Below the pieces are notes generated by a model. That model was not told the origin of the DNA and made no database searches. It saw only the letters and a program-made list of their open reading frames with translations. The position numbers and the translations under genes are program-made. This document shows positions 11,903 through 58,576 of a DNA stretch of 64,000 nucleotides, piece by piece. Source of the stretch: Clostridia bacterium (GTDB lineage: Bacteria > Bacillota > Clostridia > Oscillospirales > CAG-272). The stretch spans positions 25,231-89,230 of the forward strand of contig JAGBCA010000014.1 of the NCBI GenBank assembly GCA_017938205.1. The letters run 5' to 3'. Position 1 is the first letter of the stretch. Each line of letters opens with the position of its first letter.

Positions 11903-12748
11903 TCATTTTACAAGAGTGCCGAGGCGCGTAACGAGCATCGGCATAGCCTCCTCGAAGTTGACACCGTAGAAGCGGCGGTTTTCATCCTGCATGGTTTTGC
12001 GGATGCACTCCAGCGTATAATCCACCGCGAGGGCGAGAGAATCCTCCAAGGATGCACCGCGCATATACGCGCCAAAGGCGCAGGAGGAATAGATGTCACC
12101 CGTGCCGTGGTATGCCACGGGAAGCTTTTCATTGTAATAGGAGAAGAATTTCTTCGTTTCGGAATTATAGGCGTATACGCCGATCTTTCCGGGCTCAAGG
12201 CTGATGCCCGTGAGGGCGGCGCATTTTGCGCCCTTCTCGGTCAGGCGGACGAGAATATCGCGGATATAGGCCTCGTCATAGGTCTCAACGTAGGGGATGC
12301 CGAGCATAAAGGCTGCCTCCGTAAGATTGGGAACGATGACGTCCGCCTTGCCGCAGAGGTCTCCCATCTTCAACGCGAAGGCCTCCGTGAAGCCATGATA
12401 CAGCTTACCGTGGTCAGCCATGGCAGGATCGATCCAGGTGACAAAGCCCTTCTTATCACCGAAATCACCGATGAACTCCTCTACGAGAGAGATCTGGCGC
12501 TCTGAGCCGAGATAGCCCGTATAGACCGCATCAAAATCAAGGGAGAGCTCCTTCCATGTATCGGTGATGGAAGGGATCTCCTCCGTGAGATCACAGAAGG
12601 TGAACTTCGGGAAGGCGGTATGCGTTGAGAGAACGGCCGTGGGGATCACGCCGCACTCCACGCCCATCGCGGAAATGATGGGGAGCGCTACGGTGAGTGA
12701 GCATTTACCAACACACGAAATGTCCTGGATGGTTACGATTCTTTTCAT
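11903..12748 (-). CDS. pdxK: Pyridoxal/pyridoxamine kinase
   Basis: QDISCVGKCSL, LSTHT, YTGYLGS, DPAMADHGKLY, PNLTEA, HGTGD. Confidence 0.92.
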   Translation of the reverse strand: MKRIVTIQDISCVGKCSLTVALPIISAMGVECGVIPTAVLSTHTAFPKFTFCDLTEEIPSITDTWKELSLDFDAVYTGYLGSERQISLVEEFIGDFGDKKGFVTWIDPAMADHGKLYHGFTEAFALKMGDLCGKADVIVPNLTEAAFMLGIPYVETYDEAYIRDILVRLTEKGAKCAALTGISLEPGKIGVYAYNSETKKFFSYYNEKLPVAYHGTGDIYSSCAFGAYMRGASLEDSLALAVDYTLECIRKTMQDENRRFYGVNFEEAMPMLVTRLGTLVK

Positions 12749-12755
12749 TTTCTTT

Positions 12756-14003
12756 TCAACTTCCTTTTTCGTTTTCTTTTATCAATTTTATGTCAGCTCC
12801 AAGGGTGGAAAATTTTTCTACGATATCCTCATATCCGCGCAGGATATAGGAGGCTCCCTCGATCACGCTCTCCCCTTTCGCAGAAAGTGCCGCCAAAAGG
12901 AGTGCCGCGCCGCCGCGCAGATCCGTTGCCGTAACGGTGGCAGGAATAAGACGTGAGGGAAAAATATAGGCCGTGCTTCCGTTTTTAACGAAAGAGAGGC
13001 CCATCGTTTCAAGAGCGGAGAGATAACCGAATCTATGTGGGAATACCCCTTCCGTGACGATACCGCCCATATGCGCGGCGAGGACAGCCGCGGTCTGCGG
13101 CTGAAGATCCGTTGGAAACGCGGGATACGGCGCGGTTTTTATCAATATCGGCGAGGATAATGCACCCGAAAGCGCGATTCGCCCATCCCTTATCAAGACA
13201 CGGGCGCCTCCCCCCGAAAGAAGGGATAAAAACGCCGAAAGATGCTCTCCTTCACACCCCGTGACGGTGACACACCCACCCGTGGCAAGCCCCGCCAAAA
13301 GATACGTTCCCCCCTCTATCATATCACCAACGACCGAGCAACGGCCGCCGTGCAGAGGTCTGCCCTCGACCACGAGCGAGGAACCGATGCGAAGGATCTG
13401 CGCACCCATGGAGCGCAGAAATACGATCAGATTTTCCACGTGCGGCTCGCATGCCGCATTCTCGATGACCGTGGTGCCCTTCGCGGCAGATGCCATTAAA
13501 AGCGCGTTTACCGTTGCTCCGACGGACACCTTATCAAAGGCAAGGATCGCCCCCGTCAGCCCCTGCGAGGCAAAAAGCGTATCCCCCTGCCGCCATGCGC
13601 CAAGCGCCTCGGCGGCGTATAAATGCATATCGATCGGGCGCGGCGAAAAATTGCACCCGCCGAAATCCTGCACGTACGCACGGCCGAAGCGGCCGAGCAT
13701 CGCGCCCATCAAATAAGTAGAAGCCCGCAGAGCCGCAACGAGATGCGGCGGCGGTAGGATCGGCTTCAGCGCTCTCGTCCCGATCTCGACCGTTGTACGA
13801 TCAAGATAGCGGATGCTTGCCCCCATTGCCGCGAGGATCTCAAGGCTTATCTCCACGTCTCGAATGGCAGGAAGGTTTTCTATCGTACAAGCATTTTCGG
13901 TTAAAATGGTGGCAAAAATCAAAGGCAGAGCGGCATTTTTTGATCCGCCTACGCGTACGGTACCCTCAAGCGGCTTTCCGCCCGAAACTATCAATCTTTC
14001 CAT
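12756..14003 (-). CDS. murA: UDP-N-acetylglucosamine 1-carboxyvinyltransferase (divergent paralog)
   Basis: GSKNAALP, LRAS, GGCNFSPRPIDMH (active-site Cys), SVGATVN, PAFPTDLQP, ATDLRGGAAL, RGYE. Confidence 0.92.
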   Translation of the reverse strand: MERLIVSGGKPLEGTVRVGGSKNAALPLIFATILTENACTIENLPAIRDVEISLEILAAMGASIRYLDRTTVEIGTRALKPILPPPHLVAALRASTYLMGAMLGRFGRAYVQDFGGCNFSPRPIDMHLYAAEALGAWRQGDTLFASQGLTGAILAFDKVSVGATVNALLMASAAKGTTVIENAACEPHVENLIVFLRSMGAQILRIGSSLVVEGRPLHGGRCSVVGDMIEGGTYLLAGLATGGCVTVTGCEGEHLSAFLSLLSGGGARVLIRDGRIALSGALSSPILIKTAPYPAFPTDLQPQTAAVLAAHMGGIVTEGVFPHRFGYLSALETMGLSFVKNGSTAYIFPSRLIPATVTATDLRGGAALLLAALSAKGESVIEGASYILRGYEDIVEKFSTLGADIKLIKENEKGS

Positions 14004-14124
14004 AGCGTTCTCCGATAACAGTCGAAGTTTTTCTGCTATTATCTTATTCCGCAACGGGAAAGAGAGTGAAATCGTTGGATATGCACACTGCGTGTGCGTG
14101 ATATATGCTTTAGCGCGTGAGCGA

Positions 14125-14373
14125 GTTGAGGAGGAGAAATTTCGCAAGACAAGGCGTAAGGACGGGAGCGAGGTGAAGCCGTAGTTACCTACGGCGATCT
14201 AAGCGACTCGGCCGACAACGCGGTATTGCGGGATTTATATCATTAACGAAGTTGAGGAGGAGAAATTGCGTGAGACGAGGCAAACCGAGCGAACAACGCG
14301 ACGGCATAGTTACCTATGTCGAGCGTTGTGAGTCGATGGTTTAACAAAGTATCACACAATTTATCCCCTCAAC
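14125..14373. repeat. Two tandem 123-bp long-hairpin (REP-like/structured) elements
   Basis: Units 14125-14247 and 14251-14373 both begin GTTGAGGAGGAGAAATT and end AAC, and both have a central TAG-TTAC-CTA hairpin with compensatory changes. Confidence 0.8.
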
Positions 14374-15451
14374 GGGCGTAGTAGGCGACGGCGAGATCAA
14401 CCACCAGCCCGTAGCTCGCTACTCCAACCGTGCCGTTCATTTCAAGATAGGCATTGTTGACGGTGGAGGAGACCTCTCCCAAGACGTGATCTCTGTAGGG
14501 CTCTAAAAACTGATTATACGCAACCATTTCGCCGAGGATGCGAGGATCTACGGTTTTAATAAATGCCTTATAGCCCTCGCGATCGGCACGGGCGTAGGCC
14601 GATATCACGTATTCAAACAGATTGAAAAGACCGCTATAGCGCACGTACTCATTTTCTGCATAGGTGCACACGAGAGAGGCAATGAAATTGGCTTCATTTT
14701 CTCTTGCGATGCCGCGCTGATGCGCGAACTCATGCGCCACGGTAAAGGGATGGTTGTAATCGGGATAGGTGGTATTGACGTTTGCCTCTCCCGTGAAGAA
14801 GGTATACATGCCGAGGAGCTCCGCATAGGTCATCCATTTACGGAGAACGATGGTTTTGGGACGGGAGGAAAAGTTTTTCGCAATCGGATGCTCGGAAAGA
14901 AAAGCATCGTACGCTTTGACGATCTCCGCCCCCGTTTCCTTTAAGGTAAGGGGATTCTCCGATGCACCGCTTTCCTTATAGGTGATAGTATCAAGAATCG
15001 CTTCCAGCTCCGAGAGAAGGATCTGCGAGGTTTCGGCAAGCTCCTCTGCCGAAACGGGATCAGCGGAAAGCCCCATCTTCTTATCCAGTGTTTTTGTGTG
15101 ATAGCCGGGGGCAAGGGTGAGCATATAAAGCGGATATAGCGGCAGCAGGATCGAAAGAATGATACAAAGCATACGCACGCGGCGCTTGCCCGTTTTGGCA
15201 TAGCGGAAGGAAATGATCACCGCCAGGATCGCAAGCAGAGGGATCGAAAAGATCAGCATTTCCGCAAAGGAAAAGGGGGCGATGGAGGTAATGCTTCCGA
15301 GAAGAAAGCGAAGCACGTGCGCAACACTACCGTTCACCGCATCGGCAACGGCCGAAAAACGGCGATACAGAACGGACAAAAGAACGCCGATCAAAAAAAG
15401 GCCAAGGCTGACATAAAAGACGATCGGTATGCATCTTTCGTTTTTTTTCAT
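14369..15451 (-). CDS. DUF3810 family membrane-anchored zincin-like protein
   Basis: N-terminal TM helices, PFSFAE, GMYTFFTGEANVN, HEFAHQRGIARENEANF (HExxH). Confidence 0.85.
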   Translation of the reverse strand: MKKNERCIPIVFYVSLGLFLIGVLLSVLYRRFSAVADAVNGSVAHVLRFLLGSITSIAPFSFAEMLIFSIPLLAILAVIISFRYAKTGKRRVRMLCIILSILLPLYPLYMLTLAPGYHTKTLDKKMGLSADPVSAEELAETSQILLSELEAILDTITYKESGASENPLTLKETGAEIVKAYDAFLSEHPIAKNFSSRPKTIVLRKWMTYAELLGMYTFFTGEANVNTTYPDYNHPFTVAHEFAHQRGIARENEANFIASLVCTYAENEYVRYSGLFNLFEYVISAYARADREGYKAFIKTVDPRILGEMVAYNQFLEPYRDHVLGEVSSTVNNAYLEMNGTVGVASYGLVVDLAVAYYAR

Positions 15452-15531
15452 AACGCTTGTTCCTCCCTTTCGTTCTCGGTTATTTTTTGCGCGCATCGCG
15501 CACGATATGCGCGCAGATCAAGGATGAAAAT

Positions 15532-15560
15532 ATTATACATCACTTTTTTTGCCGTGTCAA
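15532..15560 (-). promoter_or_regulatory. Perfect sigma-A promoter for the DUF3810 gene
   Basis: Minus strand TTGACA-17 bp-TATAAT. Confidence 0.75.
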
Positions 15561-15605
15561 GTTATTTTAAACACGATCTCCTTGTATTCGGGCGAGTTTT
15601 TGCAT

Positions 15606-58365: not shown

Positions 58366-58401
58366 CAAAAGCGCACCTAACGCATAGGCGCATTCAAGAC
58401 A

Positions 58402-58560
58402 CGATAGCTCTCCACTTGCGTGACAGTGCGCAGCATATTTTGCTGCACCCCAGCAAGACTGCCGCGGAAACGGCCGCCTCACTTCGGCAATGCTCCCTTT
58501 CCTCCCCGACTCTTTTCCGCGACTCCGGAGACTACTGATGAGCAATGCGCCTCTACCTGA
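58402..58560 (-). ncRNA. Lysine riboswitch (L-box)
   Basis: Minus strand GGTAGAGGCGC...AGTA...GAAAGG...GCCGAA...CTGGG...AATA...ACTGTC...GGAGAGCTATC, with kissing-loop complement CGCGGAAA/TTTCCGCG. Confidence 0.93.
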
Positions 58561-58576
58561 TTTCTTTATTACACCC

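What the first reader, a model, noticed from the sequence alone, without database searches (positions are those of the whole stretch)
14125..14373. Tandem pair of 123-bp long hairpins with compensatory base changes
Seen: two equal-length units 3 bp apart, each GTTGAGGAGGAGAAATT...ATTTAT...AAC. The internal sequence has diverged but pairing is kept: CGCAAGAC/GTATTGCG versus CGTGAGAC/GTATCACA (same G-A mismatch), and central GCCGTAG-TTAC-CTACGGC versus GGCATAG-TTAC-CTATGTC, each followed by GA. Unit 2 overlaps the DUF3810 stop codon. Covariation with conserved purine-rich internal loops implies selection on an ssDNA or RNA structure. Candidates are a REP-like mobile repeat whose mobiliser is elsewhere, or a structured RNA array between DUF3810 and murA.
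Basis: partly seen in the sequence, partly recalled or inferred. Interest (0 to 1): 0.7.

Follow-up and report, generated by a model that had tools for sequence, protein, structure and literature searches.

The report
Stop-codon-hugging long-hairpin repeat family
The two 123-base hairpins belong to a dispersed, apparently mobile family of long-hairpin repeats in uncultured gut Clostridia that nearly always sit, in one orientation, right on the stop codon of a gene: a REP-like element of a new sort, not an RNA specific to murA.

Summary
Window 14125-14247 and 14251-14373 are two 123-nt units that each fold into one long hairpin (z -4.2 and -8.2). They are not a local oddity. The genome holds 14 full copies at 8 loci. 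The model finds the family in 24 of 36 other genomes of the genus and in 13 further genera of the family. No Rfam family, plasmid or phage matches. Pairing is strongly supported: 94% of cells are paired against 72% when shuffled, and 34 of 35 pairs show double changes.

The new point is context. Next to 38 of 42 different gene families the unit lies antisense to a gene that ends at it. In 34 of those 38 the stop codon is within -15 to +5 nt of the hairpin foot. Four of four loci tested are empty in the closest relatives, so copies are insertions. Cores can be 94-99% identical across species whose flanks are about 73% identical.

No Y1 (RAYT/IS200), IS110 or reverse-transcriptase gene tracks the element. 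Best reading: a REP/REPIN/ERIC-like mobile hairpin repeat whose mRNA form places a hairpin under the terminating ribosome. The acting strand is unresolved: G-U pairs favour the finding's strand, GNRA loops favour the gene's strand. No RNA data were available.

The parts
14125..14247 (+). Unit 1 of the hairpin repeat (123 nt). The strand given is the one that folds better; it is antisense to the flanking genes.
   Evidence: z -4.22; 129.6 bits to model R1. The core is 88% identical to the copies on contig C40.
14248..14250 (.). 3-nt spacer between the units.
   Evidence: The same 3-nt spacing occurs in the arrays on C40, C42 and C29.
14251..14373 (+). Unit 2 of the hairpin repeat (123 nt). Its last 5 nt overlap the end of the DUF3810 ORF.
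   Evidence: z -8.22; 118.4 bits. The core is 94% identical to the queA-locus copy of another species, while the foot stem is only 65% identical.
14369..14371 (-). Stop codon (TGA) of DUF3810, inside the foot stem of unit 2.
   Evidence: register -5.
14369..15496 (-). DUF3810 gene, which ends in unit 2.
   Evidence: PF12725, 2.2e-78.
12756..14003 (-). murA, the next gene in the same direction. Its start lies 121 nt beyond unit 1.
14080..14105 (.). Separate 26-nt small hairpin repeat at the far end of the array. An identical copy lies at the far end of the C40 array, and a second tandem copy occurs in related strains.
   Evidence: 27-nt insertion behind 14079. There is a weak, non-significant Gut-1 match over 14074-14145 (19.7 bits against a gathering score of 50, E 1.2).
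14036..14049 (.). A/T-rich block kept in four related species between the array and murA. It is promoter-like on either strand and its function was not tested.
   Evidence: alignment; one promoter-like site at 14015-14042 on +, no more than chance gives.

Best explanation
The pair is an old insertion of a dispersed, mobile or recently mobile family of about 123-nt long-hairpin repeats. The family is found in an uncultured gut Clostridia family and works like REP/REPIN/ERIC elements. A unit has three parts: a locus-specific foot stem of 7-8 bp, a sequence-conserved body with purine-rich internal loops, and a 7-bp apical stem with a tetraloop. Copies arise as insertions, often as short head-to-tail arrays. 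They survive almost only in one orientation, with the foot on or touching the stop codon of the gene upstream. The hairpin therefore forms in that gene's mRNA within reach of the terminating ribosome.

Shown: the family, the pairing, the insertions, and the orientation and stop-codon rule.

Inferred: by analogy with E. coli REPs that lie less than 16 nt from a stop codon, the mRNA hairpin modulates termination and translation of the upstream gene, and may protect its 3' end. The hairpin of the opposite strand (the finding's strand), as single-stranded DNA, is what the unknown copying process needs.
For: Family size: 14 full copies plus a half copy at 8 loci in the own genome.

Distribution: 24 of 36 other genomes of the genus, with 1-23 matches each, and many at contig ends. 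17 of 150 other genomes of the family, in 13 other genera.

Pairing: 94.3% of cells paired against 72.1% when shuffled, and 34 of 35 pairs changed on both sides.

Context: of 92 arrays, 87 have a called gene at the unit's 3' side. In 83 of these the gene is on the other strand and ends there. Collapsed to 42 gene families, the rule holds in 38, and in 34 of those 38 the stop is within -15 to +5 nt.

Insertions: the ADH, serine dehydratase, nucleotidyl-transferase and L19-HIT loci carry 2-3 units in this genome. All four are empty in relatives whose orthologues are 90-99% identical. About 18 nt of target is duplicated at the ADH site.

Turnover: units are 98% identical between species whose adjacent 300 nt of queA are 73% identical. 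Cores are 94-96% identical at different loci of different genomes while the foot stems differ.

Flanking genes have no common function.

[quoted passage not shown] PMC3116915 describes REPINs as about 100-nt hairpins with compensatory changes and tandem clusters.
Against: No mobiliser was found. Y1_Tnp, RVT_1 and IS110 are not detected in this genome, which is 84% complete. In the genus they occur in 6, 3 and 2 of the 24 element-bearing genomes, against 5, 2 and 0 of the 12 without. Y1 genes are not flanked by the element.

There are no terminal inverted repeats of fixed sequence. Target duplication is irregular: about 18 nt, about 8 nt, and none.

The strand evidence conflicts. G-U cells outnumber A-C cells 147 to 35, or 63 to 16 after clustering. 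The finding's strand folds better in 41 of 45 copies, which argues against the mRNA strand. The apical loop fits GNRA on the mRNA strand in 53 of 81 copies and in 0 of 81 on the other strand.

Occupancy of the queA and murA sites across many species could also mean a host function rather than mobility. No transcript data exist. My gene calls come from a home-made codon-usage caller.
Confidence: 0.6

Rival explanations
1. A structured non-coding RNA, possibly a multi-unit protein-binding RNA, read from the finding's strand. That is antisense to the 3' ends of the genes. Its function would be independent of mobility.
For: On this strand the unpaired positions are purine-rich. G-U pairs exceed A-C mismatches 147 to 35. 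It folds better in 41 of 45 copies, and in 14 of 14 own copies. Sequence is conserved in internal loops along the whole stem. At one own locus (C42) the array lies, in this orientation, between the stop of a HIT gene and a two-way terminator.
Against: The repeat carries no promoter, and units are 3 nt apart. The next gene downstream starts as little as 27-80 nt from the array, which leaves little room for a divergent promoter. The apical loop is GNRA on the other strand only. Copy number ranges from 0 to 23 among species of one genus, and four sites are empty in the closest relatives. No Rfam match.
Confidence: 0.15
2. Single-stranded-DNA recombination sites of the integron attC kind. A folded bottom strand lies directly behind an ORF and would be used by a site-specific recombinase to move cassettes.
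For: The site lies immediately behind stop codons and has a fixed orientation. The better-folding strand is antisense to the ORF, and the foot stem conserves structure more than sequence. In the own queA locus a small DUF2442-HTH gene lies between two copies.
Against: Neighbours are housekeeping genes in conserved order, not cassettes. Units stand head to tail with 3-nt spacers and no ORF between them. The fixed end motifs of attC (recalled from memory) are seen by chance at the window copy only and not in the family. No recombinase is linked to copies in the loci read.
Confidence: 0.06
3. A cis-regulatory RNA specific to murA or DUF3810, such as a leader, attenuator or riboswitch.
For: The array sits between DUF3810 and murA, and it is kept there in four related species.
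Against: The same element flanks 42 unrelated gene families. It lies at the 3' end of the upstream gene, not at a fixed distance from the downstream start (5'-side distances 10-864 nt).
Confidence: 0.02
4. Genomic DNA copies of a small rod-shaped rolling-circle replicon (viroid-like RNA or small circular DNA). This would explain head-to-tail arrays that start at a unit boundary and end inside a unit.
For: By my reading of the flanks, arrays in 4 of 8 own loci end with a partial unit, always on the same side. The unit is a rod with a tetraloop at one end and a 3-nt linker at the other.
Against: No ribozyme or other Rfam match. No match in phage or plasmid collections. Spacing of 36-38 nt in some arrays. 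Reverse transcriptase was not found in this genome and occurs in only 3 of 24 element-bearing genomes.
Confidence: 0.03

Closest known systems
E. coli REP elements within 15 nt of a stop codon (Liang, Rudd and Deutscher 2015, known to me only through passages of PMC12306157)
   Same: An extragenic palindromic repeat lies directly behind the stop codon of the upstream gene. The hairpin is within reach of the terminating ribosome, and the reported effect is ribosome stalling and lower translation.
   Different: REPs are about 35 nt long, and only a minority are that close: 260 of 496 or 446 of 4,072 according to the passages. Here the unit is 123 nt and 34 of 38 gene families are in the window. 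The stop codon is often inside the element. The phylum is different. The effect on translation was not tested here.
REPINs (REP doublets forming hairpins; PMC3116915, passages read)
   Same: A long hairpin of about 100 nt, compensatory changes on both arms, extragenic position, tandem clusters, insertion next to existing copies, and long persistence in a lineage.
   Different: REPINs have two conserved REP ends and a variable spacer, and depend on a RAYT gene. Here the body is conserved, the foot is variable, and no Y1/RAYT gene tracks the element. Copy number is low, 0-23.
ERIC sequences of enterobacteria (features recalled from memory; named as MITE-like in PMC3116915)
   Same: An imperfect palindrome of about 125 bp in transcribed intergenic regions, with copies highly conserved between species.
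   Different: No sequence relation was tested or expected. By recall, ERICs occur in both orientations and are not tied to stop codons. They belong to a different phylum.
Integron attC sites (features recalled from memory)
   Same: Imperfect palindromes of 57-141 bp directly behind an ORF. The folded strand is antisense to the ORF, and structure is more conserved than sequence at the foot.
   Different: No cassette arrays, no integrase and no fixed core motifs. The body sequence is conserved right up to the loop.
Gut-1 RNA motif (RF01706; PMC2864571, passages read)
   Same: Found in human-gut metagenome bacteria. It consists of short hairpins followed by a conserved linker, like the small 26-nt hairpin beside the array.
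   Different: The match is weak: 19.7 bits against a gathering score of 50, E 1.2. It covers the small neighbouring hairpin and only the first bases of unit 1. No match in 18 relatives' loci.

Membership tests
REP / REPIN | A RAYT (Y1 transposase, PF01797) gene in the genome, usually flanked by the repeats. | tested here: not met
   No PF01797 match in the own genome (84% complete). It is present in 6 of 24 element-bearing and 5 of 12 element-free genomes of the genus. Ten Y1 loci carry no element, best score 20.7 bits.
REP / REPIN | Two conserved short REP palindromes in inverted orientation around a less conserved spacer. | tested here: not met
   Conservation runs along the whole body up to the apical loop, and the ends (foot stem) are the variable part.
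REP / REPIN | A long hairpin kept by compensatory changes, extragenic and multi-copy, with tandem clusters. | tested here: met
MITE (non-autonomous DDE transposon) | Terminal inverted repeats of fixed sequence shared with an autonomous IS, and a target-site duplication of fixed length. | tested here: not met
   Terminal stems differ from locus to locus. Duplications are about 18 nt, about 8 nt and none at the three sites examined. No longer element with the same ends was seen among nhmmer or model matches in the own genome.
ERIC | Sequence similarity to the ERIC consensus, in Enterobacteriaceae or Vibrionaceae. | not tested
   No ERIC sequence was at hand from a tool. The comparison is by size and shape only, from recall.
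Integron attC | Conserved core sites at both ends, an integron integrase, and an array of ORF-attC cassettes. | tested here: not met
   Ends are not conserved. Neighbours are housekeeping genes in conserved synteny. The integrase family was not searched as such.
Any Rfam 15 family (including Gut-1, RF01706) | A score at or above the family's gathering threshold. | tested here: not met
   Window at gathering threshold: only a lysine riboswitch elsewhere. Region at E up to 10: only Gut-1 at 19.7 bits against 50. 18 relatives' loci at E up to 0.1: nothing.
Intrinsic terminator | A G+C-rich hairpin directly followed by a run of T on the transcribed strand. | tested here: not met
   No terminator-like site at the units on either strand. 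In three own loci a separate canonical terminator lies beyond or before the array.

The most novel reading that the evidence does not exclude
The family is a mobile element of a new kind that needs none of the known small-element mobilisers (Y1/RAYT, IS110, reverse transcriptase). It is directed to stop codons by a process coupled to the end of translation. It would live under two-level selection. The hairpin of the strand antisense to the gene serves its copying as single-stranded DNA, which would explain why G-T pairs are tolerated there. The GNRA-capped hairpin of the mRNA strand sits under the terminating ribosome and tunes the upstream gene.
Probability: 0.15. Interest if true: 0.8.

Novelty: new variant of a known kind. 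Interest (0 to 1): 0.5.

Why it matters
Hairpin repeats of the REP/REPIN/ERIC type are known almost only from Proteobacteria, and their spread is tied to RAYT transposases. This is a comparable family in uncultured gut Clostridia with three differences. No RAYT tracks it. Its orientation rule is near-absolute. It is registered on stop codons in 34 of 38 gene families, far tighter than what the passages read report for E. coli REPs. If the placement reflects function, dozens of housekeeping genes in these gut bacteria have their termination or mRNA ends shaped by one repeat family. If it reflects targeting, it points to an unknown insertion mechanism. For annotation it is practical in three ways. 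The units break MAG assemblies. They supply the stop codon and the last codons of many ORFs. They could be mistaken for regulatory RNAs.

Tried and rejected
- RNA evidence: no RNA holder listed for window 12700-15600. The three DNA runs are contigs that break inside the repeat. They showed only a second copy of the small neighbouring hairpin and joints to other copies, so nothing can be said on expression.
- Rfam: no family. The Gut-1 match is below any useful threshold.
- Plasmid and phage collections: no match with blastn.
- Mobiliser candidates Y1_Tnp, RVT_1 and IS110: no link. Other classes, such as tyrosine or serine recombinases, TnpB and IS91, were not searched.
- Promoter and terminator scan: no more than chance gives.
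- GC skew: the finding's strand is the C-rich strand at 7 of 8 own loci. Gene direction and replication direction coincide, so the two cannot be told apart.
- A scan of public collections with degenerate DNA patterns was given up. The one genome-contig scan went to MurA. It named only 'Eubacteriales/Clostridia bacterium' MAGs from gut samples.
- Literature: word searches turned up REP/REPIN/RepRanger papers but no description of this family. Word searches cannot find an unnamed sequence family, so this is weak evidence that it is not in print.
- Considered and dropped: a K-turn at the apical internal loop (the layout does not fit, by inspection only), a small ORF behind the Shine-Dalgarno-like purine run (no start codon, and the following stem covaries), and a CsrA-type sponge (not tested).

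Full report
**What is there.** Window 14125-14247 and 14251-14373 are two 123-nt units separated by 3 nt. On the + strand each folds into one long, nearly continuous hairpin: -43.8 and -55.9 kcal/mol, z -4.22 and -8.22, with none of 200 shuffles as good. Both neighbours are on the minus strand.
- ORF 14369-15496 is DUF3810. Its stop codon, 14369-14371, lies inside the foot of unit 2.
- ORF 12756-14003 is MurA.

On the gene strand the order is therefore DUF3810, unit 2, unit 1, a small 26-nt hairpin (14080-14105), an A/T-rich block, then murA.

**A family, not a local feature.** BLAST, nhmmer and a covariance model (R1, built from alignment A1) find 14 full copies and one half copy at 8 loci of the same genome. 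The arrangement is three tandem copies once, two copies four times, and singles. R1 matches in these groups:
- 24 of 36 other genomes of the genus, with 1 to 23 matches each, many at contig ends as expected for repeats that break assemblies.
- 1 of 24 genomes from other families of the order, weakly.
- 17 of 150 other genomes of the same family, from 13 other genera.

The only named relatives are gut MAGs labelled Eubacteriales or Clostridia bacterium. No Rfam family reaches threshold in the window or in 18 relatives' loci. Nothing similar is in the plasmid or phage collections.

**Structure.**
- On the 14 own copies RNAalifold gives 35 pairs, 20 of them with double changes.
- On 53 copies from more than 25 genomes, 94.3% of cells form a standard pair, against 72.1% after shuffling (0 of 500 shuffles reach it) and 31-39% with partners slid by 1-3 columns. 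34 of 35 pairs show changes on both sides.
- That alignment was fitted to the model, which leans towards the structure. The slid controls and the independent single-sequence folds point the same way.
- A unit has a foot stem of 7-8 bp that differs from locus to locus, a body whose sequence is conserved including purine-rich internal loops, and a 7-bp apical stem with a tetraloop.

**The context rule.** I called genes with a codon-usage score trained on this genome's long ORFs. This is a home-made caller and a weakness of the analysis.
- 92 arrays were examined and 87 have a called gene at the unit's 3' side, taken in the orientation of the finding. In 83 of these the gene is on the opposite strand and ends there.
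- Many arrays are the same orthologous site, so I clustered the neighbouring proteins. This gives 42 gene families, with the rule holding in 38 and an exception in 4.
- In 34 of the 38 the ORF end lies between 15 nt inside and 5 nt outside the unit.
- There are three registers:
  - 12-15 nt inside (12 families), where the stop is a TAA inside a conserved A/T hexamer of the element.
  - 5 nt inside (4 families, the window among them), where the stop is a TGA in the foot stem.
  - 3 nt inside to 5 nt outside (17 families).
  - One further family lies at -9 and four lie at 61-364 nt.
- The gene on the other side mostly runs in the same direction as the upstream gene (63 of 81 arrays with a call there) and starts 10-864 nt away.
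- The flanking genes share no function: QueA, MurA/DUF3810, ribosomal protein L19/HIT, an alcohol dehydrogenase, serine dehydratase, a nucleotidyl transferase and KduI/IolB.

**Copies are insertions.** In the two closest relatives, whose orthologues are 90-99% identical, four of four loci tested lack the element.
- Serine dehydratase: the relatives have 13-20 nt between the stop and the next start codon. This genome has two units starting 1 nt after the stop. About 8 nt including the stop is present on both sides.
- Nucleotidyl transferase: the relatives have about 20-35 nt between the stop and a terminator. This genome has three units, a partial unit and the small hairpin, with no duplication.
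- Alcohol dehydrogenase: the insertion lies about 10 nt before the native stop and gives a new C-terminus. About 18-19 nt of target is present on both sides. The far end is a partial unit joined at a short microhomology.
- L19-HIT: empty in a relative whose L19 is 99% identical.

By my reading of the flanks, arrays in four of eight own loci end in a partial unit, always on the side away from the stop codon.

**Old sites and fast turnover.** The window's site is older. Four related species with 70-72% MurA identity all carry one or two units in the same place and orientation.

Behind queA, 23 of 30 loci of the genus (own included) have a match. In 19 of them the first unit starts inside the last four codons. 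Those four codons do not vary at synonymous sites in most element-bearing genomes, while the codons before them do. When the last codons differ, the far arm of the foot differs to match.

The bodies at one site belong to different subfamilies in different species. Some species pairs share units 98% identical although the adjacent 300 nt of queA are 73% identical. Bodies are 94-96% identical between different loci of different genomes while the foot stems are 65-71% identical. That pattern fits recent spread or exchange of bodies better than slow vertical divergence. Very strong constraint is not excluded.

One queA site is truly empty and one holds a remnant. Others carry different small hairpin repeats, including a short hairpin that contains the stop codon.

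**Which strand acts?** The evidence conflicts, and I report both sides.

For the finding's strand, antisense to the genes:
- It folds better in 14 of 14 own copies (sum -632.6 against -543.9 kcal/mol).
- It folds better in 41 of 45 full copies with RNA parameters and in 43 of 45 with DNA parameters.
- G-U cells outnumber A-C cells 147 to 35. After clustering copies at 80% identity the count is 63 to 16, or 42 to 16 without one nearly invariant G-U column.
- The unpaired bases are purines on this strand.

For the gene strand:
- It is the strand certain to be transcribed.
- The stop-codon registration is a reading-frame matter.
- The apical loop fits GNRA in 53 of 81 full copies, with five different variants, against 0 of 81 on the other strand.

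Local GC skew makes the finding's strand the C-rich one at 7 of 8 loci. This cannot separate replication from transcription. No RNA run is listed.

**Mobiliser.** None was found.
- Y1_Tnp (RAYT/IS200): none in this genome (84% complete). Present in 6 of 24 element-bearing and 5 of 12 element-free genomes of the genus. Ten Y1 loci carry no element.
- Reverse transcriptase: none here, and 3 of 24 against 2 of 12.
- IS110: none here, and 2 of 24 against 0 of 12.

The irregular junctions (variable duplication, microhomology, partial units) would also fit copying by host replication or repair. That alone would not explain the orientation and the stop-codon placement.

**How it most likely works.**

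Shown: a hairpin-forming repeat family that inserts and persists almost only with its foot at a stop codon and in one orientation.

Inferred: in the mRNA the foot, and often the stop codon itself, is paired, so each terminating ribosome must open it. In E. coli, REP hairpins fewer than 16 nt from a stop codon are reported to stall ribosomes and lower translation (PMC12306157, passages citing Liang et al. 2015; I did not see the original). The same geometry holds here for nearly all copies. I take that, with or without 3'-end protection, as the likeliest effect on the host. I take the better fold of the opposite strand as a trace of the copying process, as proposed for REPINs, whose hairpins also show compensatory changes and tandem clusters (PMC3116915, passages).

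A caveat applies to any palindrome. Template switching or mismatch correction within a hairpin can make double changes without selection. Covariation therefore proves pairing at some stage, not an RNA function.

**Verdict.** It is a new variant of a known kind. Its stop-codon rule is worth an experiment.

Noticed in passing
window 14080-14105; also own contig C40 2702-2727 (L013): A 26-nt small hairpin plus linker, identical at the far ends of two arrays. Related strains carry a second tandem copy (27 nt inserted behind 14079). The Gut-1 match here is weak and not significant.
   Followed up: partly
L014 (own C42, between the 2.5 units and the HIT gene); L170 and L194 (behind queA); L244 (L19-HIT spacer of G034); L178 (behind the element): Other arrays of short hairpins whose stems vary while a 7-9-nt linker is kept. 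At least three linker types and one heptamer repeat occupy the same 3'-end niches as the 123-nt element. They look like candidates for a family, or families, of their own.
   Followed up: no
L168, L181, L191, L169 (behind queA in four genomes): A short perfect hairpin that contains the queA stop codon, followed by a different long purine-rich/pyrimidine-rich inverted repeat capped by a terminator-like hairpin. It may be a minimal relative or a remnant of the element.
   Followed up: no
L010 1969-3246 (own contig C34 28468-29745): In this genome a DUF2442 plus HTH gene (146 aa) lies between two element copies behind queA. In relatives queA is followed by the element and then directly by the SASA esterase gene.
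   Followed up: partly
own genome: C45 14132-14177, C73 52488-52573, C38 6879-6988 and 105789-105895, C49 11425-11532, C10 6701-6808, C1 1387-1491: Weak matches to model R1 (E 3e-4 to 0.02, 24-31 bits). They may be distant or decayed relatives, or unrelated long hairpins.
   Followed up: no
window 58397-58563 (-): Lysine riboswitch aptamer, 95.5 bits. An ordinary feature.
   Followed up: no
L029 1414-1499 / L169 1145-1230; L041 958-1059: Short variants of the unit that keep the foot and lower stem but lack the whole upper body.
   Followed up: no
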